A stretch of 64,000 bases of DNA, taken from Patescibacteria group bacterium. Its GTDB lineage: Bacteria; Patescibacteriota; Minisyncoccia; Phycocordibacterales; PALSA-1337. The stretch's first letter is position 1. Every line of letters starts with the position of its first letter. The notes below the pieces were generated by a model that saw nothing but the letters and a program-made list of their open reading frames with translations, was not told the origin of the DNA and did not search any database. The DNA lies in assembly GCA_040388415.1 (NCBI GenBank), contig JAZKBV010000004.1:24069-88068 (forward strand), given 5' to 3'. Positions 1 through 60,948 of the stretch are shown in pieces. Made by a program: the position numbers and the translations under genes.

Positions 1-2158
1 CACGGTTGTGGGTAATGAGAATGAGTTGTGAATGCTTTGAAAGATTTTCGATCATATCGCCATATTTTTTACTATTGGCTTCATCGAGGGCGGCGTCGGT
101 CTCGTCAAGGATGATGAATGGAGGCGGATTGACCTGAGAGACAGCAAAGAGAAGCGCAATTGAAGTGAGAGCACGCTCGCCACCTGAAAGCATCATAAGA
201 CCTTTCACTTTCTTGCGAGGCAAACTAACGTTAACCTCGAGACCCTCTGGTCCTTCTTGTGATTCTTCATTCTCCATTCTTCCTTCTTCGTTTTCTACTC
301 CTTCCAGCATGTCACCCAACTCTTCAGTATCTCCTTTCTTCTTTCTCCTTACTTCTCTAATTACAGTAAGCTCTGCATTGCCTCCACCAAACATCAAAGA
401 AAAATAATTCGTAAACTCCTTATTTATCTTTAATATTCCCTGCTTGAACTCTACATCGATGCGTACATCGAGCTCAGCTATGAGCTTATTTAGTTCATCC
501 TTTGCCTTCTCAAGATCAATAAGCTCACGCGCAAGGAAAGCATCGCGCTCCTCAGTTTCTTTATACTCTTTCATCACTTCAGCGCCACCACCCGCACCCA
601 TGTCTTCGAGACGAATTTTCAGTTTATCTATCTGATGCTTGCGTTCTTGTTGCTCTTGTCTTTGCTCTTGCGTTCTTCCTTCTCCTTTCTCTTTACTTCT
701 TTCTTCTTCGTACTGCGTCGCCTCACGCCCTACGATCATTCCCGCTTCACCCAACTCTCTTTTGAATTCCGCATCGGCAAAATCTATCTTCTGAACCTCC
801 GCGGTCAAACTACCGACAATATGTCGTACCTCGTTTTGACGTGCGATAATCCTAAACACTTCTTTTTCAGCGTCGCGGTTCGTATCCTTCTCATGCTCGA
901 TCTTTTGCTTGAGCGCGTTATATTCGCTGACGATCTTCTTTTCAAAATCCCCCAGCTCAGCTCTCTTATGCTCAAAGCTTTTCTTCTCATCAGATAAACG
1001 CGCAATCTCCTTTTCCATCTCAGCGATGAACTGCGAATCATTGGTTGAACGATGACCTTTGATGAAATGCCTGAAGGCGTCGATGACTTCTTTTACTGTT
1101 TGAAAGAGCTCAACCTTACTGATGACTTCTTCAACATCTTTCAAATAGACAGTTTTAAACTCCTCCTGCTTCATTCTCCCTTCTTCTTTCTCCTTCGCGC
1201 GTTTATTGGCATTTATTTCGCCCTCTATACGGCCGAGTTCACGTACAACAGTATCAGTCTCGGTGCGCGTTTCAGCTAGCTTCTTTTCAAGTGAAATCAA
1301 TTCGTCACTGGTCACATCTTTGTTCTTTGACGCTGTTAATATCTCTTTAGCTTTGTTGAGCGCATGCTCAAGGTCAGACAGCTCTTTCTTTGGTCCAGCA
1401 ATCTCTGCATGTAAACGACTCTTTTCAGTGGTGATATAGTGGTCTTCATGAGCAAAATATATTTTATATATTGAAATAAGCTCACGGCGCATCTCTTCGG
1501 CTTTTTCAACTTTCTCAACTTGTTTCTTCAAAAAGCGCAGGTGCGGAGCGATCTCACGACGGAGCGACTCTACTTGCTTCATATTCTCTTCGGTGCGCTC
1601 GAGCTTGCGGATGCTTTCCAATTTCTTCCATTGATATATCTTGAGACCGAGAGCATCCTCGATCATTTCACGACGTTCGCGAATGCTTGCCGAGAGGATG
1701 CGGTCAGCTTCGCCCTGAGAGATGATGTGGTGACCAGTTGCGCCAACATGAGCAGTCGCCAGAAGCTCGATGATATCTTTGAGACGCACTGCGGTGCCAT
1801 TCAATAAATATTCATTGCTATTATCACGATGGACGATGCGTTCAATAGTCACTTCATCAAAATCAATCGATGCAAACATGCGGCTCGAATTATCAAATGT
1901 TAGTTTTGCGCTGGCACGATTTGCTCTGCCCGCAGCAGAAGGACCATCGCCGCCACCATTCCAGATCATATCCTCACCACGTTTGCCGCGAAGAGATTTG
2001 ATAGATTGCTCGCCGAGCACAAAACGAAATGCTTCAGCAGTGTTCGACTTGCCTGAACCGTTCGGACCTACGATACCCGTGATCGATGAGGTGAAATTGA
2101 GCGTTGCCTTTTTGGCAAATGATTTAAAGCCAGATACTTCGAGGGATTTCAGATACAT
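1..2158 (-). CDS. smc: Chromosome segregation protein SMC (C-terminal end runs off the window start)
   Basis: The reverse complement from 2158 reads MYLKSLEVSGFKSFAKKATLNFTSSITGIVGPNGSGKSN (Walker A). Near position 1 it reads LSGGERALTSIALLFA...PFIILDETDAALDE (ABC signature and Walker B). It is not in the ORF track because no stop codon lies in the window. The + strand ORFs at 165-1807 are low-complexity antisense artefacts. Confidence 0.85.
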   Translation of the reverse strand, partial: MYLKSLEVSGFKSFAKKATLNFTSSITGIVGPNGSGKSNTAEAFRFVLGEQSIKSLRGKRGEDMIWNGGGDGPSAAGRANRASAKLTFDNSSRMFASIDFDEVTIERIVHRDNSNEYLLNGTAVRLKDIIELLATAHVGATGHHIISQGEADRILSASIRERREMIEDALGLKIYQWKKLESIRKLERTEENMKQVESLRREIAPHLRFLKKQVEKVEKAEEMRRELISIYKIYFAHEDHYITTEKSRLHAEIAGPKKELSDLEHALNKAKEILTASKNKDVTSDELISLEKKLAETRTETDTVVRELGRIEGEINANKRAKEKEEGRMKQEEFKTVYLKDVEEVISKVELFQTVKEVIDAFRHFIKGHRSTNDSQFIAEMEKEIARLSDEKKSFEHKRAELGDFEKKIVSEYNALKQKIEHEKDTNRDAEKEVFRIIARQNEVRHIVGSLTAEVQKIDFADAEFKRELGEAGMIVGREATQYEEERSKEKGEGRTQEQRQEQQERKHQIDKLKIRLEDMGAGGGAEVMKEYKETEERDAFLARELIDLEKAKDELNKLIAELDVRIDVEFKQGILKINKEFTNYFSLMFGGGNAELTVIREVRRKKKGDTEELGDMLEGVENEEGRMENEESQEGPEGLEVNVSLPRKKVKGLMMLSGGERALTSIALLFAVSQVNPPPFIILDETDAALDEANSKKYGDMIENLSKHSQLILITHNR

Positions 2159-2532: not shown

Positions 2533-3249
2533 TTACCACTTCTTAACCACCAAAGCGTTTTCAGCCGCCTTCTGCTCCGCCTCCTGCTTTGACTTCCCTT
2601 CCCCTGTCGCAACCTGCACATCACCGAGAAATACGGCAAGCGTGAACTTCTTGTCATGATCAGGACCTGTTTCTTTGAGCGTCTTATATGATGGCGTGAC
2701 TCCCGCTTTCTCCTGCGCTTTTTCTTGAAACATGCTCTTTGCATCGATCCATGTCTTGTTCTTCACAATCTCATCGATGTCGATAATATTTAAAATATGT
2801 TCAGAAATAAAATTCGCAGATGTATCATAGCCACTATCCATATAAATAGCACCGATAACTGCTTCAACTGCATTGGCGAGGATGATAGCGCGCGCACGAC
2901 CAGTATCCTTTGCCTCACCTTTTGAAAGGAGCATATAGTCGTTGAGACCAACCTTGTCACCAACTTTTGCCAAACTAACCGTATTCACAATGGCTGAACG
3001 AAAGGCGGTGAGCTCTCCCTCAGCCTTCTTTGGAAATTTACGGAAAAGAAAACTGGTCACTACAAGCTCGAGCACGGCATCACCGAGAAATTCGAGGCGC
3101 TCATTGTGCTCCAAACCAGATTCGCGATTCTCATTGATATATGAGCGATGCGTACATGCGGTGCGCAAAAGAGCCATGTCATTGAACGTGACATTGATAT
3201 GCTCTGCCAAATTTTCGAAGTTTATTTTCATAAAAATACGCCTGCCCAA
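2533..3249 (-). CDS. rnc: Ribonuclease III
   Basis: ERLEFLGDAVLELVV signature and a C-terminal dsRBD (GEGKSKQEAEQKAAENAL). The start may be the internal MKINFEN at 3231. Confidence 0.9.
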   Translation of the reverse strand: MGRRIFMKINFENLAEHINVTFNDMALLRTACTHRSYINENRESGLEHNERLEFLGDAVLELVVTSFLFRKFPKKAEGELTAFRSAIVNTVSLAKVGDKVGLNDYMLLSKGEAKDTGRARAIILANAVEAVIGAIYMDSGYDTSANFISEHILNIIDIDEIVKNKTWIDAKSMFQEKAQEKAGVTPSYKTLKETGPDHDKKFTLAVFLGDVQVATGEGKSKQEAEQKAAENALVVKKW

Positions 3250-3250
3250 C

Positions 3251-4150
3251 TTATTTCTCCTCGCTCACAATCGTCACCGCTTTTGCTACTATAGGTAAAA
3301 TATCGTTATAGAAGTTAAGTTCAAGGATAGCGTCGAGCTTGAACCATTTTGCATCAGCGAGTCCCGGTTTCTTAGCGAGAGTGAGCGTCTTGAAATCAGA
3401 CTCGGCGAGATAGTAGTGCACTTGCTTGCGGATCTTGCCGATCTCGGGATCATTGGCGATATATTCATTTTCACCGAGGTCAGCGATGATCTTTACTTCA
3501 AGACCGATCTCTTCCATCACTTTGTTGATAGTACCCTGCTTCGGATCAACTTCCGGTGGAATCTTGCCCTTTGAGAGGGTCCAGTGGCCGAAGACATCAT
3601 AGACGAAGGCCATATAGACATCTGCGCCGTCACGAGCATATACCACTGCACCACCTAAGTGTTGGATTGGCATTTGCTCATAAGGGACTTCAACCTTCTT
3701 TTTCTTTATCGGCTGGGCATCCTTTCCTGGCTCACCGAGCTCTTTGTAAACTGCACCGAGAACGCCGTTGACGAAACGACCGCTTGTCTCACCGCCAAAG
3801 GTCTTTGCAAGCTCGATGGCTTCATTGATAGCTACTTTCGCAGGCACTTCAACGCGATCAGCAAAGAGAAGCTCATAAAGACCGAGACGGAGCACGTTAC
3901 GGTCTATCGGTGAGATCTTGTCGATAGGCCACTCAGGCGCTGCCTTTGAGATGATGTCATCGAGCTCACTATGTTTAGCGAGGATACCCTTCATAAGCTC
4001 ATCCATGAATGAAACATCGGCTACCCCGGGAGCGAACTCTTTTGCATCGCGCTCTATGATAACAGATGAGGTTGCATCTTTTTTGCCACAAAAATCCCAC
4101 TCAAAAAGTGCCTGGAGGACAACTGAGCGAGATAAATGTCTATTTGCCAT
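3251..4150 (-). CDS. nusB: NusB-family antitermination domain fused to a C-terminal Nudix-like domain (degenerate Nudix box)
   Basis: The N-terminus has RSVVLQALFEWDF...DRNVLRLGLYEL...VPAKVAINEAIELAKTFGGETSGRFVNGVLG, which is typical NusB. The C-terminal 150 aa reads GAVVYARDG...GHWTLSKGKIPPEVDPKQGTINKVMEEIGLEV, matching Gx5Ex7REUxEExGU only at the EExGU positions. Confidence 0.75.
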   Translation of the reverse strand: MANRHLSRSVVLQALFEWDFCGKKDATSSVIIERDAKEFAPGVADVSFMDELMKGILAKHSELDDIISKAAPEWPIDKISPIDRNVLRLGLYELLFADRVEVPAKVAINEAIELAKTFGGETSGRFVNGVLGAVYKELGEPGKDAQPIKKKKVEVPYEQMPIQHLGGAVVYARDGADVYMAFVYDVFGHWTLSKGKIPPEVDPKQGTINKVMEEIGLEVKIIADLGENEYIANDPEIGKIRKQVHYYLAESDFKTLTLAKKPGLADAKWFKLDAILELNFYNDILPIVAKAVTIVSEEK

Positions 4151-4264
4151 GAGTTTATTTGAAGAACATTGTTACGATAACCTGATTATAAAATTCCAAA
4201 TTCCAAATATCAATCACCAAACGAGCACATACCCTTTGGAACTTGTATCTTGGAGCTTGGAACT

Positions 4265-4483
4265 TTACTTAGCTGCCTTTGCAACCTTTGCCGCCTTCTT
4301 GGTAGCAGCGATAGTAAGATCAAGGACCTTACGGCCATTGTACCATCCACAGTTCATACAGACTGCATGACTCTTGTGAGCGGCCTTACAATTTTGGCAA
4401 ACAGAAGTACGTGCAGCATCGAGAGCATGATGTGAACGTCTATTGTCGCGATGAGCTCGCGTTGCGCGCATTCGGTTTACCAT
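4265..4483 (-). CDS. rpmF: 50S ribosomal protein L32
   Basis: RRSHHAL...C.NC...H..C.NCG.YNGRKV zinc-ribbon pattern. Confidence 0.85.
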   Translation of the reverse strand: MVNRMRATRAHRDNRRSHHALDAARTSVCQNCKAAHKSHAVCMNCGWYNGRKVLDLTIAATKKAAKVAKAAK

Positions 4484-5127: not shown

Positions 5128-6528
5128 ATGAGTACGAGCAACCCAAGCGACCCCAAGATGGGTCAGGTCACTAAACTGACCTTCAATCGCAAAAACGGTA
5201 ACTTCAGCTACAAGATCCCTGGCACCGGTGCCCGAAACGGCATCCAGTTCTATATCACGCCGACTGGCAACATCAAAGATGCCGTGCTCAGTATGGGCAT
5301 CTCTGGCGATCTTATCAAAATCGCCGCGAAGAACGGTAGCCTCACGCACAACTTGTCAGACTTCGGCCTTGTGTCGGAAAAGACTGTTGTGCGGGCGGGA
5401 GATTACTACCTTGTCCCGATCACCGTAGCGCACAGCACTTCTGGTCAGTCGCCGAGTGACCCGTTCTCGAAACCGGTCACACTCAGTCAAACGTTGGTGA
5501 ACGCTCTCGATGTCGTCTGGATCAAGAACAAGATCAACGTCCTGGAGTTGAATATCAATAAATTGAAAAAGGACGTTAACGGGATTCCGACTGATGCGCA
5601 CATCAAAGACCTCGCGAAAATCGAGGCGGCGACTGCATTCAGCGGCTATCAGGCTGAACTCAATGAACTTCGGGAGCTGCTCGACAAAAAGCAGCCCAAG
5701 GTCATCGTCAAGCGCACCGTCGCTTTGAACCTCGGAATGATCCTGATGAAAGCGCTCAGCAAGTGGACGGAGGCACGGAAGAAGAAAGCTCAAGCGAAAG
5801 CTGCGGCTACCCCTTCTTCTCCTGCCAAACCGGCTCTGAGCCCTCACCGCGCCCAGAAGCATGCGAACTATCGTCTGCGCTGGGCGTTGGCGGGAATCGC
5901 ATTCCTCATCCTCTGTCTCTCTGCGTTGGGGTATTACTTGAACCAAAAGTCCGGTCACCAAGGGGTCACTCCTTTGGCATCGGCTTTGGTCAACACCAAT
6001 GCGGGTGCAAGCAGTAACGCGCCGGCGAGCAGTGTGGCGACGATTGTCACCACGAACAGCCTCGGAACGAATGCGAACTCAGCTGTTTTGACTGCTGCTG
6101 CGACAAATAGCGCTTCAGTCATTCAGCAGATGGTCGTCGGACCTAATTGCAGTAACGTAAGCGGGCCAGTCAACATGAACTTTAGTCTGTTGTCTGTTCC
6201 CCCGCAACCAATCGTTGTGAAAACAATTGTGAAAACAACGGTCATCGTTACGAATCCGGTCGCTGTGAAAAAACCGTTCACGCCAGCCGTAGGGTATCAA
6301 CCGCCCGTGGCACAAAAAACCTTTGTGCCTGCGCAAGCGGTAACGCCCCCACAGGCCTCGGTGATCATCATCAACAATCAGACTGTCAACCGAGGAGGTT
6401 ATGGTCCTGGCACGGTATTGATAAGCGGCTGGCAGTATGACAATCAGCTCAGAGGCGGGAGACAAGTTTGCTACCGGGACAACTACCGGGCAATACGATC
6501 CTTCCCTCCGCCGTGTCGCCATCAATAA
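5128..6528 (+). CDS. Hypothetical protein with a central TM helix and a C-terminal low-complexity V/T/P-rich region, in a higher-GC segment
   Basis: A 466-aa ORF with an AAGGAGAG RBS 8 nt upstream. One TM segment reads WALAGIAFLILCLSALGYYL. Local GC is about 50-55% against about 43% in the core. An intrinsic terminator follows at 6551-6583. Confidence 0.6.
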   Translation: MSTSNPSDPKMGQVTKLTFNRKNGNFSYKIPGTGARNGIQFYITPTGNIKDAVLSMGISGDLIKIAAKNGSLTHNLSDFGLVSEKTVVRAGDYYLVPITVAHSTSGQSPSDPFSKPVTLSQTLVNALDVVWIKNKINVLELNINKLKKDVNGIPTDAHIKDLAKIEAATAFSGYQAELNELRELLDKKQPKVIVKRTVALNLGMILMKALSKWTEARKKKAQAKAAATPSSPAKPALSPHRAQKHANYRLRWALAGIAFLILCLSALGYYLNQKSGHQGVTPLASALVNTNAGASSNAPASSVATIVTTNSLGTNANSAVLTAAATNSASVIQQMVVGPNCSNVSGPVNMNFSLLSVPPQPIVVKTIVKTTVIVTNPVAVKKPFTPAVGYQPPVAQKTFVPAQAVTPPQASVIIINNQTVNRGGYGPGTVLISGWQYDNQLRGGRQVCYRDNYRAIRSFPPPCRHQ

Positions 6529-6612: not shown

Positions 6613-6903
6613 CTATCTACCAGCGATCGTATTTGAAATGAAATAGACAATGCCCCATGCAGATACCATGATCATGATGCCAACGACGCCGGCCAACATA
6701 TGATTGCGTCCTTTCGTGCGCGCGTCGCCATCTTCACCGTTAATCATCATCTGTATGACGCCCCATACAAAAACTATGATGGCAACCGCGAACATGAGCA
6801 TGATCAGTGGATTGACTATGTGCGTGAATATAGGATCAACCACAGAGGCAAAAGCCGCTGTGGGATCCGCTGCTGCATGTACTGTATCGATGAGATAGCT
6901 CAT
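6613..6903 (-). CDS. Pilin-like small membrane protein (TrbC/VirB2-like topology), paralog 1, lacking an N-terminal signal peptide
   Basis: Two hydrophobic helices are separated by a charged loop (NGEDGDARTKGRN). The C-terminal motif SAWGIVYFISNTIAG is shared with four upstream paralogs. Confidence 0.4.
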   Translation of the reverse strand: MSYLIDTVHAAADPTAAFASVVDPIFTHIVNPLIMLMFAVAIIVFVWGVIQMMINGEDGDARTKGRNHMLAGVVGIMIMVSAWGIVYFISNTIAGR

Positions 6904-6908
6904 TCTCT

Positions 6909-7268
6909 TTACGGAATCTGAGGAGGATAGTTCAACTGTGGGAAGTTCTGCGTAGGAGCGTTCGTGTTTGTTCTGAACGTATTTGAGAGAATATTAACGA
7001 GACCCCAGATCGAAAGGATAACAAAGAGACCGACGATGCCCCAGAGCACAGCCATACCAATCGACTTGCGCTTTTCTGGATCCTCAGCGGCCATGATATA
7101 ACGAACAACATTGAAGATGATATAGAGAACCGCAAAAGCGATAAGAATCTCAATAGCGACGTTACCGAGGTTCGTCAGTTTGTTGGTAAGAGAGTTGACG
7201 TCCGTAATAGCCTGAGCGCTCACGATAGCTGGAGCAAAAACGGCGACAAGTGCGATGATTTTTTTCAT
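6909..7268 (-). CDS. Pilin-like secreted/membrane protein (TrbC/VirB2-like), paralog 2
   Basis: Signal peptide MKKIIALVAVFAPAIVSAQA. Two TM helices with loop AAEDPEKRKS. C-terminal motif LSIWGLVNILSNTF. Confidence 0.5.
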   Translation of the reverse strand: MKKIIALVAVFAPAIVSAQAITDVNSLTNKLTNLGNVAIEILIAFAVLYIIFNVVRYIMAAEDPEKRKSIGMAVLWGIVGLFVILSIWGLVNILSNTFRTNTNAPTQNFPQLNYPPQIP

Positions 7269-7377
7269 TTTCTTATAAACTAAATTGGATAATAAAATCT
7301 AATACGATACCTCTAGTATACCCCACATTATTCGCGAGGAGCAACATAACGTGTGGATTAGTCGGTGATGTATTTCA

Positions 7378-7818
7378 CTAGCGTGGGAAGATGTTCGAGA
7401 TCTCTGTCCATGACCCAGGCCCGTAACCTGTATTGCCGAGACCAAATGTATTTTGAAGGATATTGACCAAACCCCACATCGAAAGGATGACGAAGAAGCC
7501 GATGACGCTGTACATGACATATGAACCAGCCTCTTTCTTATCGGCATCAGGCTTAATGAAATAGTTGAATATGTAGTAGACGAATACGACTACCGAAAGA
7601 CCGATCAATAAAAAGAGGATCTGGTTCAAATAACCGATAACACGGTTGATAAGTGTACAAAGCGTCATGGCATTTGAAGTACACTGACTACCCGATGAGG
7701 CGTAATTTCCATATGAGGCGTTACCACCAATGTTGAAAGTAACCGGCGATGTTGCATATGTAGCTATTGGGCTCACGAGCAGAACAAAAGCAAAAAGAGA
7801 AATAAGTGTTTTTTTCAT
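7378..7818 (-). CDS. Pilin-like secreted/membrane protein, paralog 3
   Basis: Start taken at MKKTLISLF (7818), which abuts the stop of paralog 4. Signal peptide present. Two TM helices with loop KPDADKKEAGS. C-terminal motif LSMWGLVNILQNTFG. Confidence 0.5.
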   Translation of the reverse strand: MKKTLISLFAFVLLVSPIATYATSPVTFNIGGNASYGNYASSGSQCTSNAMTLCTLINRVIGYLNQILFLLIGLSVVVFVYYIFNYFIKPDADKKEAGSYVMYSVIGFFVILSMWGLVNILQNTFGLGNTGYGPGSWTEISNIFPR

Positions 7819-7828
7819 AAAATAATAA

Positions 7829-8539
7829 TTACTGGTTATTAATAGCATTCTGCGCATTTTGAATGATCGCTGGATTGACTGTGCCAGTCGCCTGGAGCGT
7901 ATTGATGACGACGCTGATCAATATGCGCGCACCAAGGATGACACCGATGCCAACAACAACCCAGAGGAGCTGGTTGCTGCGGGTCTTAATCGCTTCCGGA
8001 TTTCCCTGCGCCAATACGAACTGGAGACCGACCCACATGAGCATGAGCACACCAAAAATCACTGCGATGTAGCTGACGATCTTCATAAAGGTCAAAATAA
8101 GATCGCTCACCGAATTGACTCCCTTAAGCGGATTGGAGAGTGTCGTCACTGGTGCAGGCGCAGGAGCTTGATCAGAAGCACTCGGTGTTTTTGCTGTAGA
8201 CGTGCGAGCTGCTGGCTGACCGGCAGTCGTTGGAGAACTAACTGTCGTTGGAGATGTAGCGTTATCAACTGCATTTACATTTGATCCTGAATACGGCACT
8301 GGAATAGTCGAGGGAGATGAATCATATGTTGTATCATACGAATTATAATCATAGCTCGAATCAGTGGATGGGTCTGTTGCTGATGGGTCTGTCGAATCTG
8401 CACCGGCACAGCTTTCTGGCGTACCTCCTTCGTTCAAACAATAATCATAATCGCTATTTTGTGCATAGCTGACGAATGGGCTCGCGATAATAACCGCTAA
8501 AGTAAGATATGTGACGTAGATTTTTAGAGTTGTTTTCAT
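7829..8539 (-). CDS. Pilin-like secreted/membrane protein with a long S/T/P/D-rich insert, paralog 4
   Basis: Signal peptide MKTTLKIYVTYLTLAVIIASPFVSYAQ. An approximately 110-aa low-complexity S/T/P/D-rich region. The C-terminal two-TM core ends in ARILISVVINTLQATG. Confidence 0.5.
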   Translation of the reverse strand: MKTTLKIYVTYLTLAVIIASPFVSYAQNSDYDYCLNEGGTPESCAGADSTDPSATDPSTDSSYDYNSYDTTYDSSPSTIPVPYSGSNVNAVDNATSPTTVSSPTTAGQPAARTSTAKTPSASDQAPAPAPVTTLSNPLKGVNSVSDLILTFMKIVSYIAVIFGVLMLMWVGLQFVLAQGNPEAIKTRSNQLLWVVVGIGVILGARILISVVINTLQATGTVNPAIIQNAQNAINNQ

Positions 8540-8573
8540 GAAAAAAAGATCAAATTAATAATTGAGTCAGTAA

Positions 8574-9095
8574 TTATGGACTACCGAGCAACTTGGTAAA
8601 CGCACCATTTCCCGTCAGCCAATTGAGGATCTGATAAACGATGAACCATGCTGACAGCATGATGATCAAACCAATGAATATCTTTGGAAAAATATCCTTG
8701 GCATGACTACGGTCACTATCCTTACCTGTCATAAGTAAATATCCTGCATAGGTAAAGAGAACAATGGCGGCGAGGACACCGAGCACCATGGCAATGTTGA
8801 TGAGATGCTGGACCTGTATCATCATGCCATTAAAATTGCAGGGCACATATGGCTGCGCATGTCCGAATTTTTTCATAAATGCGGTCTCACCTGAAGGCGA
8901 TAATATCTCTCTCGTCTTCGTATCGAGATTAGCTGGCAGCTCTGGGCCATCGCACGCAACGATCCTGAATGACGACTGAGTAGGATCCTCACTTGCGCTA
9001 GGAGACGTTAATGTTTGAGTATTCTGTGCAAAGACTGAAGACGTAGCAAGGAGGCTAACGCTGAGAAGTATGAGAGAAAGGGTAATTTTTTTCAT
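8574..9095 (-). CDS. Pilin-like secreted/membrane protein, paralog 5
   Basis: Signal peptide MKKITLSLILLSVSLLATSSVFAQ. Two TM helices with loop MTGKDSDRSHAKD. C-terminal motif LSAWFIVYQILNWLTGNG. Confidence 0.5.
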   Translation of the reverse strand: MKKITLSLILLSVSLLATSSVFAQNTQTLTSPSASEDPTQSSFRIVACDGPELPANLDTKTREILSPSGETAFMKKFGHAQPYVPCNFNGMMIQVQHLINIAMVLGVLAAIVLFTYAGYLLMTGKDSDRSHAKDIFPKIFIGLIIMLSAWFIVYQILNWLTGNGAFTKLLGSP

Positions 9096-60651: not shown

Positions 60652-60948
60652 TTTGTTACTGGTTTTAGGTAGCATAAAGCCCACCACGTGGGCGACGGCT
60701 TGCGCCATCCATACCAGTTTCCCGATATGACCAGTAACGATAGCCCCACATGATGGGTTTTCTACTCGTTACTGGTTTTTTCACCATGTCAGTATTTCTA
60801 CTGATTTAGGCTACTCGTATAAAATATTGAATTGTGTTCCCATTAAACCATAAAATACTCTCGTTTAAAAGTGACATTGGGGCATTTGTTGATAAGTTTA
60901 ATATCAATCTAGTGTATAATATTGATATCAGTTTTTGATATTTGAACA

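What the first reader, a model, noticed from the sequence alone, without database searches (positions are those of the whole stretch)
3251..4150. NusB antitermination factor fused to a Nudix-like domain with a degenerate catalytic box
The N-terminal about 140 aa is an unambiguous NusB. After a Lys-rich linker, about 150 aa has a Nudix-fold-like beginning (GAVVYARDG...FGHWTLSKG) and a Nudix box that keeps EExGU (VMEEIGL) but replaces the RE pair with NK. This could be an inactive, RNA-binding or regulatory module. Nudix enzymes of the RppH type act on RNA 5' ends, so a fusion to NusB (which binds nascent rRNA boxA) is functionally suggestive.
Basis: partly seen in the sequence, partly recalled or inferred. 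Interest (0 to 1): 0.5.

Follow-up and report, generated by a model that had tools for sequence, protein, structure and literature searches.

The report
NusB fused to degenerate Nudix domain
A real, lineage-wide gene in Paceibacteria (candidate phyla radiation) joins the rRNA antitermination factor NusB to a domain derived from an Ap4A-hydrolase-type Nudix enzyme; in this genome's clade the domain has lost key catalytic residues but kept its nucleotide-binding pocket, so it probably binds rather than cleaves.

Summary
Window 3251-4150 (minus strand) is one intact 299-aa ORF. It has a bona fide NusB domain (res 1-138), a Lys-rich linker (139-162) and a Nudix-fold domain (163-299). The Nudix box GKIPPEVDPKQGTINKVMEEIGL lacks three signature residues (E->V, R->N, E->K) but keeps EExGU.

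It is not an assembly artefact. Thousands of about 300-aa homologues carry both domains. All 80 fetched species-representative genomes have the fusion, nearly always in the order rpmF, nusB::nudix, rnc.

The Nudix domain is closest to Ap4A/Ap6A hydrolases of the NUDT2 type, not to RppH. The triple substitution occurs only in the window's immediate clade; close relatives keep a canonical box. Across the family the catalytic Glu/Arg positions vary, whereas the phosphate-binding Lys and the two adenine-stacking Tyr are nearly invariant. The degenerate domain evolves as slowly as NusB.

Best reading: a catalytically crippled module that binds a nucleoside polyphosphate and is tethered to NusB. It most likely holds the 5' (p)ppN or Np4-capped end of boxA-bearing nascent rRNA. 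A free-nucleotide sensor or a residual hydrolase remain open. I found no paper describing the fusion. Function is untested.

The parts
3251..4150 (-). Whole nusB::nudix ORF (299 aa plus the stop codon at 3251-3253). Identical to NCBI protein MES2314886.1, which is annotated only as 'transcription antitermination factor NusB'.
3737..4150 (-). NusB domain, res 1-138. All-helical.
   Evidence: Pfam PF01029 E 4e-34. TIGR01951 scores 124 bits against a cut-off of 88. phmmer against solved NusB proteins gives E 6e-22 to 1e-14, aligned through res 133-138 for most of them. Foldseek target TM 0.82-0.87 to NusB, including the NusB-NusE-boxA complex 3R2C.
3665..3736 (-). Linker, res 139-162: GEPGKDAQPIKKKKVEVPYEQMPI. 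It contains the conserved GEPGK motif and a Lys run. Most of it is predicted flexible.
   Evidence: Translation. pLDDT is below 50 for res 141-153 and pTM is 0.49. G139, E140, P141 and K143 are invariant and G142 is at least 90% conserved in the 150-sequence alignment A2. For most solved NusB proteins the aligned region ends before the motif.
3254..3664 (-). Nudix-fold domain, res 163-299, of the Ap4A-hydrolase (NUDT2-like) subtype.
   Evidence: Pfam PF00293 above its gathering score. Family profile against PDB sequences: 3I7U 1e-18, CT771 1e-14, Ndx1 1e-13, human NUDT2 1.5e-10. Foldseek target TM 0.86-0.87 to 3I7U.
3500..3568 (-). Degenerate Nudix box, res 195-217: GKIPPEVDPKQGTINKVMEEIGL. 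V201, N209 and K210 replace the box residues E, R and E (MutT E44, R52, E53). E213 and E214 are kept.
   Evidence: Translation. Family comparison.
2533..3249 (-). rnc (RNase III). Its start lies one base downstream of the nusB::nudix stop codon, so the two are probably co-transcribed.
   Evidence: Pfam Ribonucleas_3_3 E 1e-38 plus dsrm. rnc lies downstream on the same strand in 79 of 80 related loci.
4265..4483 (-). rpmF (ribosomal protein L32), directly upstream.
   Evidence: Pfam Ribosomal_L32p E 2e-16. It lies upstream on the same strand in 73 of 80 related loci.
4185..4213 (-). Promoter-like site TTGATA-17-TATAAT (11 of 12 positions match) between rpmF and nusB::nudix. This is a consensus match only.

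Best explanation
The gene encodes the cell's NusB with a second domain tethered to it by a flexible, Lys-rich linker of about 24 residues. NusB is the boxA-RNA-binding subunit of the rRNA antitermination complex. The second domain descends from an Ap4A-hydrolase-type Nudix enzyme.

In this genome's clade the domain has lost three Nudix-box residues needed for metal-dependent hydrolysis (E->V, R->N, E->K). It keeps the P1-phosphate-binding His and Lys and the two aromatic residues that clamp the adenine. It therefore most likely acts as a binding module for a purine nucleoside polyphosphate, with little or no hydrolysis.

Because it hangs on a flexible tether next to NusB-bound leader RNA, the most likely ligand is the 5' end of that same nascent transcript, either pppA/pppG or an Np4N cap. 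Holding that end at the elongation complex would protect it or position it while the long-range RNase III processing stem forms. Relatives with an intact box would instead hydrolyse that end.

Shown: the domain identities, the fusion and its conservation, the box degeneration, the pocket conservation, the purifying selection and the synteny with rnc.

Inferred: loss of catalysis, retention of binding, the identity of the ligand and the physiological role.
For: The NusB domain is genuine. The Nudix fold is of the NUDT2/Ap4A-hydrolase subtype.

By profile alignment to human NUDT2, Aquifex Ap4A hydrolase and CT771, H189 and K194 match the P1-phosphate His and Lys, Y246 matches the loop-5 stacking Tyr, and Y281 matches human Phe128. 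The roles of those residues are taken from PMC4734340.

In 80 species-representative genomes K194 is present in 80 of 80, Y246 in 78 of 80 (the other two are Phe) and Y281 in 79 of 79. The full canonical box occurs in only 22 of 80, and the E53-equivalent Glu in 34 of 80. The same trend holds in 40 representatives at 50% identity. A rough neighbour-joining tree with parsimony gives at least 31 switches of box state among 280 sequences.

In the degenerate clade K210 is fixed in 116 of 120 sequences. There the Nudix domain is as conserved as NusB: 80.9 against 81.4% pairwise identity, and dN 0.156 against 0.160 with saturated synonymous sites.

The linker has pLDDT below 50 and pTM is 0.49, which fits a tether rather than a rigid allosteric unit. 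The order rpmF, nusB::nudix, rnc is conserved.

From established knowledge (my memory, not checked here): in C. elegans Ap4A hydrolase, E52Q (the E53 equivalent) lowers kcat about 1000-fold. In the TRPM2 NUDT9-H domain the same box Glu is replaced and the domain binds ADP-ribose without hydrolysing it. NUDT2 and RppH act on 5'-triphosphate or Np4-capped RNA.
Against: No biochemical data exist for any member.

The two box glutamates that matter most for catalysis (E213 and E214, equivalent to MutT E56 and E57) are invariant in the degenerate clade. That could mean a metal site and some chemistry persist.

The Nudix domain is acidic (net charge about -4, pI about 5.3), which argues against an extended RNA-binding surface.

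The conserved pocket residues could be kept partly for structural reasons.

No rRNA operon lies in the window, and the E. coli-type boxA pattern was no commoner in it than expected by chance. The geometry between boxA and the RNA 5' end therefore could not be examined.

Whether the genome has another NusB, an RppH or an ApaH is unknown; only 64 kb were available.
Confidence: 0.4

Rival explanations
1. Free-nucleotide sensor. The degenerate Nudix domain binds a free small molecule (Ap4A or another NpnN, ATP/GTP, ppGpp, ADP-ribose). It thereby tunes NusB activity and rRNA antitermination to the nutritional or stress state. This would resemble the NrtR and AraR regulators, in which a Nudix-like domain is the effector-binding domain.
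For: The pocket residues are conserved while the catalytic residues drift. The NrtR Nudix domain bound to ADP-ribose (3GZ8) is among the top Foldseek hits, and AraR (5BS6) appears in the profile search. The domain is acidic, like small-ligand Nudix proteins. A different fusion of the same Nudix subtype to DNA-binding HTH domains exists (P0183).
Against: The flexible, low-confidence linker and pTM of 0.49 give no sign of a fixed interface through which ligand binding could be passed on to NusB. NusB has no known allosteric regulation. There is no evidence on which ligand would be sensed.
Confidence: 0.2
2. Still an enzyme. Despite the variant box, the domain remains a pyrophosphohydrolase, perhaps slow or with altered chemistry. 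Tethered to NusB, it converts the 5'-ppp or Np4 cap of leader RNA to 5'-p. That licenses 5'-end-dependent RNases after RNase III cleavage, an RppH-like role.
For: E213, E214, G195 and G216 of the box are invariant in the clade. Many family members keep a fully canonical box (22 of 80 species representatives; 60 of 120), so the ancestral domain was probably active. The profile also matches Dcp2 decapping enzymes at E 1e-9. The gene is syntenic with rnc. Some Nudix enzymes with atypical boxes are active (my own knowledge, e.g. GDP-mannose hydrolase).
Against: Three box residues are lost at once, including a metal ligand that is replaced by Lys. The position aligned with the third catalytic Glu of Ap4A hydrolases (human SHEHQ, Aquifex SWEVK) is Pro-Gly here and Gly-Gly in most of the family. 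Across the family the E53-equivalent position is free to be K, R, V, I, A, S, G or N, which is not what an obligatory catalytic residue would show. The RppH model scores far below its cut-off.
Confidence: 0.2
3. Protein-protein scaffold. The Nudix domain has been recruited purely as a structural subunit of the antitermination complex. It would contact RNA polymerase, NusE/S10, NusA/NusG or RNase III. The parallel is SuhB, an inositol-monophosphatase-fold protein that serves structurally in the E. coli rRNA antitermination complex.
For: The domain is conserved although the catalytic residues are not. The linker motif GEPGK is conserved yet predicted disordered, as expected for a short docking motif.
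Against: The most conserved residues are those that line the nucleotide pocket in homologues, not an obvious separate surface. No partner could be tested with the tools available.
Confidence: 0.1
4. Artefact. Two adjacent genes (nusB and a Nudix gene) were joined by a frameshift, a lost stop codon or a chimeric assembly specific to this genome.
For: None was found. Some 130-180-aa 'solo' Nudix entries in the 50%-identity library begin inside the linker (MPVE..., MGEP...) and look like truncated gene calls of the fusion rather than separate genes.
Against: All 120 hits listed in each of three searches are 271-329 aa long and carry both Pfam domains. All 80 species-representative loci match query residues from 1 to at least 279, most of them to 292-299. 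Eight intact orthologous ORFs were checked at DNA level.
Confidence: 0.01

Closest known systems
NusB (E. coli, Aquifex aeolicus, Thermotoga maritima; the NusB-NusE-boxA complex 3R2C)
   Same: The N-terminal 138 aa pass the NCBIfam equivalog model. They are up to 39% identical to T. maritima NusB and superpose on solved NusB structures with target TM 0.82-0.87.
   Different: Canonical NusB is a single-domain protein of about 140 aa. This protein continues with a conserved GEPGK motif, a Lys-rich linker and a 137-aa Nudix domain.
Ap4A/Ap6A hydrolases of the NUDT2 type (Aquifex aq_158 3I7U, Chlamydia CT771, T. thermophilus Ndx1, human NUDT2, C. elegans Ap4A hydrolase)
   Same: These are the best matches by sequence profile (E 1e-18 to 6e-10) and by fold (target TM up to 0.87). 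The (H/Y)WxxxKG motif, the P1-phosphate Lys and both adenine-stacking aromatic residues are shared.
   Different: These proteins are standalone enzymes with an intact REUxEE and a further catalytic Glu. The window protein has NK in place of RE, Val in place of the first box Glu, and Pro-Gly where the extra Glu aligns. It is also fused to NusB.
RppH (bacterial RNA 5' pyrophosphohydrolase) and Dcp2 (mRNA decapping Nudix)
   Same: Both have a Nudix fold and act on RNA 5' ends, which is the kind of substrate a NusB-tethered Nudix would meet. Dcp2 is the next-best group in the profile search (E 1e-9).
   Different: The RppH model scores 13-15 bits against a cut-off of 118, so this protein is not an RppH. 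The catalytic box is incomplete.
Non-catalytic Nudix domains: TRPM2 NUDT9-H, CFIm25/NUDT21, and the NrtR and AraR Nudix-type regulators
   Same: In each case a Nudix fold keeps its ligand pocket but loses box glutamates and is used for binding: ADP-ribose for channel gating or repression, UGUA RNA in 3' processing. The NrtR Nudix domain (3GZ8) is among the top Foldseek hits. This is the closest functional analogy.
   Different: The Nudix subtypes and the partner domains differ (ion channel, wHTH, none). No homology beyond the superfamily level was shown here. The roles of NUDT9-H and CFIm25 are cited from my own knowledge.
RsmB/Sun (NusB-like N-terminal domain fused to a 16S rRNA m5C methyltransferase)
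   Same: It is a precedent for a NusB-fold RNA-binding domain fused to an enzyme domain that acts on rRNA. The RsmB models hit the N-domain only.
   Different: The scores are far below the RsmB cut-offs (64 against 319 bits). There is no methyltransferase domain, and the N-domain here is orthologous NusB, not the RsmB paralogue.

Membership tests
NusB (TIGR01951 / PF01029) | Sequence matches the curated equivalog model above its cut-off | tested here: met
   TIGR01951 scores 124 bits against a cut-off of 88.35. PF01029 scores 118 bits against 23.1.
NusB (TIGR01951 / PF01029) | All-helical NusB fold | tested here: met
   The AlphaFold2 model has seven helices at res 4-138, with pLDDT of about 80-96 per 10-residue block. 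Foldseek target TM is 0.82-0.87 to 1TZV, 3R2C, 3R2D and 4EYA.
NusB (TIGR01951 / PF01029) | Binds boxA RNA together with NusE (S10) and supports rRNA antitermination | not testable with these tools
   This needs biochemistry or genetics. No rRNA operon lies in the window, and the E. coli-type boxA pattern was no commoner than expected by chance.
NusB (TIGR01951 / PF01029) | Single-domain protein of about 130-160 aa | tested here: not met
   The protein is 299 aa with an extra C-terminal domain. Solved NusB proteins are 139-156 aa, and most align only as far as res 133-138 of this protein.
Nudix superfamily (PF00293) | Profile match above the gathering score | tested here: met
   33.7 bits (36.3 for the domain alone) against a gathering score of 21.1.
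Nudix superfamily (PF00293) | Alpha/beta/alpha Nudix fold | tested here: met
   The AlphaFold2 model has pLDDT of about 90 in this domain. Foldseek gives 3I7U at target TM 0.86-0.87 and rmsd 2.3-2.5 A, plus many other Nudix structures.
Nudix superfamily (PF00293) | Nudix box GX5EX7REUXEEXGU complete | tested here: not met
   In GKIPPEVDPKQGTINKVMEEIGL the first E is V201, R is N209 and the E of RE is K210. G, U, EE, G and U are kept.
Ap4A hydrolase / NUDT2-like Nudix subfamily | Closest relatives by sequence profile and by fold are Ap4A/Ap6A hydrolases | tested here: met
   One search gives 3I7U 1e-18, 4ILQ 1e-14, 1VC8 1e-13, 3U53 1.5e-10 and 1KT9 6e-10. One search agrees.
Ap4A hydrolase / NUDT2-like Nudix subfamily | P1-phosphate His and Lys and the adenine-stacking Tyr plus Tyr/Phe | tested here: met
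   H189, K194, Y246 and Y281 align with these residues (their roles come from PMC4734340). K194, Y246 and Y281 are nearly invariant across the family.
Ap4A hydrolase / NUDT2-like Nudix subfamily | Catalytic glutamates: two or three in the box plus one outside it | tested here: not met
   K210 replaces the first box metal ligand. The position aligned with the extra Glu (human SHEHQ) is Pro-Gly. The loop alignment is uncertain by one residue.
Ap4A hydrolase / NUDT2-like Nudix subfamily | Hydrolyses Ap4A to ATP and AMP | not testable with these tools
   This needs an enzyme assay.
RppH (RNA pyrophosphohydrolase) | Matches the RppH equivalog model above its cut-off | tested here: not met
   NF001936 scores 12.7 bits (15.0 for the domain alone) against a cut-off of 118.
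Nudix-related transcriptional regulators (NrtR type) | Nudix-like effector domain fused to a winged-helix DNA-binding domain | tested here: not met
   There is no wHTH; the partner domain is NusB. The resemblance is one of logic only: a degenerate Nudix joined to a nucleic-acid-binding factor.
RsmB/Sun | NusB-like domain plus a SAM-dependent m5C methyltransferase domain, scoring above the cut-off | tested here: not met
   PRK14902 scores 63.9 bits against a cut-off of 319, covering res 8-160 only.

The most novel reading that the evidence does not exclude
The dead Ap4A-hydrolase domain is a bacterial reader of RNA 5' ends or caps. It recognises the pppN or Np4N-capped 5' end of the nascent rRNA leader and, through its tether to NusB, holds that end on the elongating polymerase. 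This would couple the chemical state of the transcript's 5' end (and hence cellular Np4N or stress levels) to rRNA antitermination, folding and RNase III processing in genome-reduced Paceibacteria. Canonical-box relatives would be the matching erasers. The family would then show repeated enzyme-to-reader conversions.
Probability: 0.2. Interest if true: 0.75.

Novelty: new variant of a known kind. Interest (0 to 1): 0.5.

Why it matters
NusB is a universal, normally single-domain factor that nucleates the rRNA antitermination complex on boxA RNA. In a large class of ultra-small candidate-phyla-radiation bacteria it is permanently fused to a Nudix module. That points to an undescribed link between rRNA transcription or processing and nucleoside polyphosphates or the chemistry of RNA 5' ends.

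The family is also a natural series. Some members have a canonical box, some a partly eroded one and some a strongly eroded one, all on an otherwise conserved scaffold. This makes it a clean system for studying how an enzyme becomes a binding domain, and it gives testable pairs of proteins (the window protein against relatives such as P0021).

Public annotation calls all of these proteins simply 'NusB', and I found no paper that mentions the fusion, so the extra domain is currently invisible to users of those annotations.

Tried and rejected
1. Frameshift or assembly artefact: rejected.

2. RppH membership: rejected. The model scores far below its cut-off.

3. A decaying, selection-free remnant domain: rejected. 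Conservation and dN are equal to those of the NusB domain, and dN/dS is at most 0.08 in the few pairs where dS could be computed.

4. Separate 'solo' versions of this Nudix next to nusB: the 120-180-aa entries in the 50%-identity library mostly start inside the linker and look like truncated gene calls. Their genomic context could not be looked up because the tool refuses ids from that library.

5. Literature: five searches (NusB+Nudix; NusB+Candidate Phyla Radiation; Nudix+domain architecture+antitermination; NusB+Patescibacteria; Nudix+Parcubacteria) found nothing relevant. A search for the C. elegans Ap4A hydrolase mutagenesis paper failed, so those numbers are cited from memory.

6. boxA search in the window with the E. 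coli consensus: 30 hits against 25.8 expected by chance, none near the gene.

7. No rRNA operon in the window and no terminator-like sites around the operon.

8. Foldseek against afdb50 was not available, so UniProt-level naming and taxonomic spread were not obtained.

9. A second NusB or a second Nudix of this type in the 64-kb window: none. The whole genome was not available.

10. Domain-domain orientation: not defined by AlphaFold2 (pTM 0.49).

11. The parsimony count of box-state switches rests on a rough neighbour-joining tree of a biased sample. It shows only that switches were many.
Full report
**Observation.** Window 3251-4150 holds a single ATG-initiated ORF of 299 aa on the minus strand. 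Pfam finds NusB at res 7-136 (E 4.1e-34) and NUDIX at res 185-287 (33.7 bits against a gathering score of 21.1). The C-terminal 140 aa alone give E 6.9e-9. The NCBIfam NusB equivalog TIGR01951 is passed (124 bits against 88). The MutT, RppH and RsmB models all score far below their cut-offs. The linker is GEPGKDAQPIKKKKVEVPYEQMPI. The Nudix box is GKIPPEVDPKQGTINKVMEEIGL. G, U, EE, G and U remain. The protein is identical to NCBI MES2314886.1, which is annotated only as 'transcription antitermination factor NusB' from a Patescibacteria MAG.

**Structure.** I ran AlphaFold2 on a 150-sequence alignment. The model has mean pLDDT 86, an all-helical N-domain (res 4-138) and an alpha/beta C-domain (res 162-297). 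Residues 141-153 have pLDDT below 50 and pTM is 0.49, so these are two well-folded domains on a flexible tether with no defined mutual orientation. Foldseek against the PDB places the C-domain next to Aquifex Ap4A hydrolase 3I7U (target TM 0.86-0.87, rmsd 2.3-2.5 A, 25-26% identity). T. thermophilus Ap6A hydrolase Ndx1 (0.84), C. elegans and human Ap4A hydrolases and Chlamydia CT771 follow. The NrtR Nudix domain and NudC also appear. The N-domain matches NusB from Thermotoga (39% identity), Aquifex (including the NusB-NusE-boxA complex) and Mycobacterium.

**Subtype of the Nudix domain.** I built a profile from the Nudix domains of 34 diverse fusion proteins and searched it against PDB sequences. 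The order of hits is the same as for the fold search: Aquifex Ap4A hydrolase 1e-18, CT771 1e-14, Ndx1 1e-13, human NUDT2 1.5e-10, C. elegans Ap4A hydrolase 6e-10, then Dcp2 decapping enzymes at about 1e-9. The domain is therefore derived from an Ap4A hydrolase of the NUDT2 type. It is not an RppH orthologue.

**The fusion is real and lineage-wide.** Three database searches were run, one with the protein and two with profiles of diverse members. Each scored the 8000 candidates sharing most words with the query. All 120 hits listed in each search are 271-329 aa long and carry both PF01029 and PF00293. Where a name is given it reads Patescibacteria, Paceibacterota, Parcubacteria, Taylor-, Nomura-, Moranbacteria and the like.

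In a library of one representative per 50%-identity cluster, the Nudix domain alone finds 479 representatives at E up to 1e-3. The 38 full-length NusB fusions in that list go down to about 30% identity.

A scan of one genome per GTDB species found at least 595 relatives. The scan pattern lies in the NusB domain, so not all of these need be fusions. All 80 loci that were fetched match the query from residue 1 to at least residue 279, most of them to 292-299.

Synteny is conserved. rpmF lies directly upstream in 73 of 80 loci, and rnc lies downstream on the same strand in 79 of 80, within 300 nt in 71. In the window, rnc starts one base after the nusB::nudix stop codon. smc follows further downstream.

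**State of the Nudix box across the family.** The triple substitution ([V/I/T] at the first Glu, N/A/S at Arg, Lys at the second Glu) is found in 116 of the 120 closest sequence clusters. Among the 80 species representatives it occurs only in the seven closest (L001-L004 and L006-L008).

Four close relatives whose NusB domains are 85-95% identical to the window's keep a perfect box, GKLEGEEDVKDGTIREIKEEMGID. So does the Taylorbacteria locus L005. Intermediate forms exist in which only the first Glu is lost (for example ...IVDEEEGTIREIKEE).

Family-wide the box is unstable. Only 22 of 80 species representatives have all five E/R/E/E/E residues. The Glu of RE is kept in 34 of 80 and is otherwise K, V, A, S, I, G or N, and R in other members. 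A rough neighbour-joining tree with parsimony needs at least 31 switches among 280 sequences.

**What is conserved instead.** By the profile alignments to human NUDT2, Aquifex Ap4A hydrolase and CT771:
- H189 and K194 correspond to the His and Lys that bind the P1 phosphate.
- Y246 corresponds to the loop-5 Tyr that stacks on the adenine.
- Y281 corresponds to the second stacking aromatic residue (human Phe128).

The roles of these residues are as described for the Plasmodium and human enzymes in PMC4734340.

| Residue | 80 species representatives | 40 representatives at 50% identity, 38 of them fusions |
|---|---|---|
| K194 | 80/80 | 39/40 |
| Y246 | 78/80 (two Phe) | 38/40 |
| Y281 | 79/79 | 37/40 |
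| W190 | not counted | 40/40 |
| Glu of RE | 34/80 | 9/40 |
| Next box Glu | not counted | 22/40 |

The position aligned with the additional catalytic Glu of Ap4A hydrolases (human SHEHQ, Aquifex SWEVK) is Pro-Gly in the window and Gly-Gly in most of the family. That loop alignment could be off by one residue.

**Selection.** Within the degenerate clade the Nudix domain is as conserved as the NusB domain (80.9 against 81.4% mean pairwise identity). It is relatively better conserved than in a canonical-box group (70.0 against 78.3%). At codon level, eight intact orthologues give dN 0.156 for Nudix and 0.160 for NusB. Synonymous sites are saturated (pS about 0.8), and dN/dS is at most 0.08 in the few pairs where it can be computed. 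The domain is therefore not decaying; something other than classical catalysis is being selected.

**Mechanism.** The following is established knowledge cited from my memory, not checked here. The RE Glu and the EE pair are the metal ligands of Nudix hydrolases. In C. elegans Ap4A hydrolase, E52Q (equivalent to K210 here) lowers kcat about 1000-fold and E56Q about 100,000-fold. In TRPM2 NUDT9-H the same Glu is replaced and the domain binds ADP-ribose without hydrolysing it. CFIm25 and NrtR are further Nudix folds used for binding.

From this and the conservation pattern, I infer that the window's Nudix domain binds a purine nucleoside polyphosphate moiety but hydrolyses it poorly or not at all. 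K210 may take the place of the metal in contacting phosphate.

NusB binds boxA in the 5' leader of nascent rRNA. The domain hangs on a flexible Lys-rich tether with no predicted interface to NusB. The most economical ligand is therefore the 5' pppN or Np4N-capped end of the same transcript. NUDT2, RppH and Dcp2 relatives act on such ends (my own knowledge). Holding or shielding the 5' end at the elongation complex would fit NusB's known role in bringing the leader to its distant partner for RNase III processing. It would also fit the conserved nusB::nudix-rnc gene pair. I give this reading about 0.4.

The rivals are:
- a free-nucleotide sensor on the NrtR logic (0.2);
- a residual or altered hydrolase, supported by the invariant EE pair and the many canonical-box relatives (0.2);
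- a pure protein-protein scaffold analogous to SuhB (0.1);
- an artefact (about 0.01, refuted).

Points against the favoured reading: the domain is acidic (net charge about -4), the EE pair is retained, there is no biochemical evidence, and I could not examine an rRNA leader.

**Comparison and novelty.** The N-domain is a member of NusB by every test I could run, except that the protein is not single-domain. The C-domain is a member of the Nudix superfamily by profile and fold and belongs to the Ap4A-hydrolase subtype by nearest neighbours and pocket residues. It fails the defining Nudix-box and catalytic-Glu tests, so it should not be called an Ap4A hydrolase or an RppH.

The logic resembles RsmB (a NusB-like domain fused to an rRNA enzyme) and NrtR, TRPM2 NUDT9-H and CFIm25 (Nudix folds turned into binders). 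I found no description of a NusB-Nudix fusion in five literature searches. Public annotation names only NusB, although the two Pfam domains are precomputed in the databases. I rate it a new variant of a known kind, of moderate interest (0.5). It is real, widespread, undescribed and mechanistically suggestive, but built from two familiar domains and functionally untested.

**Limits.** Only 64 kb of the genome was available, so a second NusB, RppH, ApaH or the RNase repertoire could not be checked. The afdb50 fold library was unavailable. The taxon labels on loci are those of the submitters; many read 'uncultured Candidatus Saccharibacteria', although every other named hit points to Paceibacteria. 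The sequence samples are biased towards relatives of the queries.

Noticed in passing
window 6613-9095 (minus strand): Five tandem paralogous small membrane proteins (96-236 aa) all match PF18895 T4SS_pilin, and two also match TrbC/VirB2. They form a pilin gene array typical of candidate-phyla-radiation genomes.
   Followed up: partly
window 60694-60812 (minus strand): A LOOT RNA (Rfam RF03000) matches at 87.5 bits against a gathering score of 46.4, over the full model length.
   Followed up: no
window 5128-6528 (plus strand): A 466-aa ORF with no Pfam match. It has a predicted membrane-spanning stretch and a long Ala/Ser/Thr/Val/Pro-rich C-terminal half.
   Followed up: no
window 3722-3736 (minus strand; res 139-143 of the protein): The linker motif GEPGK is almost fixed in a 150-sequence alignment (G139, E140, P141 and K143 invariant; G142 at least 90%) and recurs in fusions only 30-50% identical. 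Yet AlphaFold2 gives it low confidence, and for most solved NusB proteins the aligned region ends before it. It may be a short docking or RNA-contact motif specific to the fusion family.
   Followed up: partly
window 4185-4213 (minus strand): A near-consensus sigma-70-like site, TTGATA-17-TATAAT (11 of 12 positions), lies between rpmF and nusB::nudix. This suggests nusB::nudix-rnc may have its own promoter. It is a consensus match only.
   Followed up: no
protein P0183 (50%-identity representative library; not in the window): The same Nudix subtype (39% identical, with box RK..EE, so it also lacks the RE Glu) is fused to Sigma70_r4 and Bac_DnaA_C helix-turn-helix domains. This is a second fusion of this Nudix type to a nucleic-acid-binding protein. 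Only one representative was seen.
   Followed up: partly
window 2-2158 (minus strand), running off the window start: An smc gene (SMC_N, E 8e-56) lies downstream of rnc, giving the order rpmF, nusB::nudix, rnc, smc. As I recall, rnc-smc adjacency is also known in Bacillus.
   Followed up: partly
loci L001-L080 (record titles): Many species-representative MAGs that carry this Paceibacteria-type fusion are titled 'uncultured Candidatus Saccharibacteria bacterium'. Every other named hit points to Paceibacteria or Parcubacteria, so these look like generic or wrong submitter labels.
   Followed up: no
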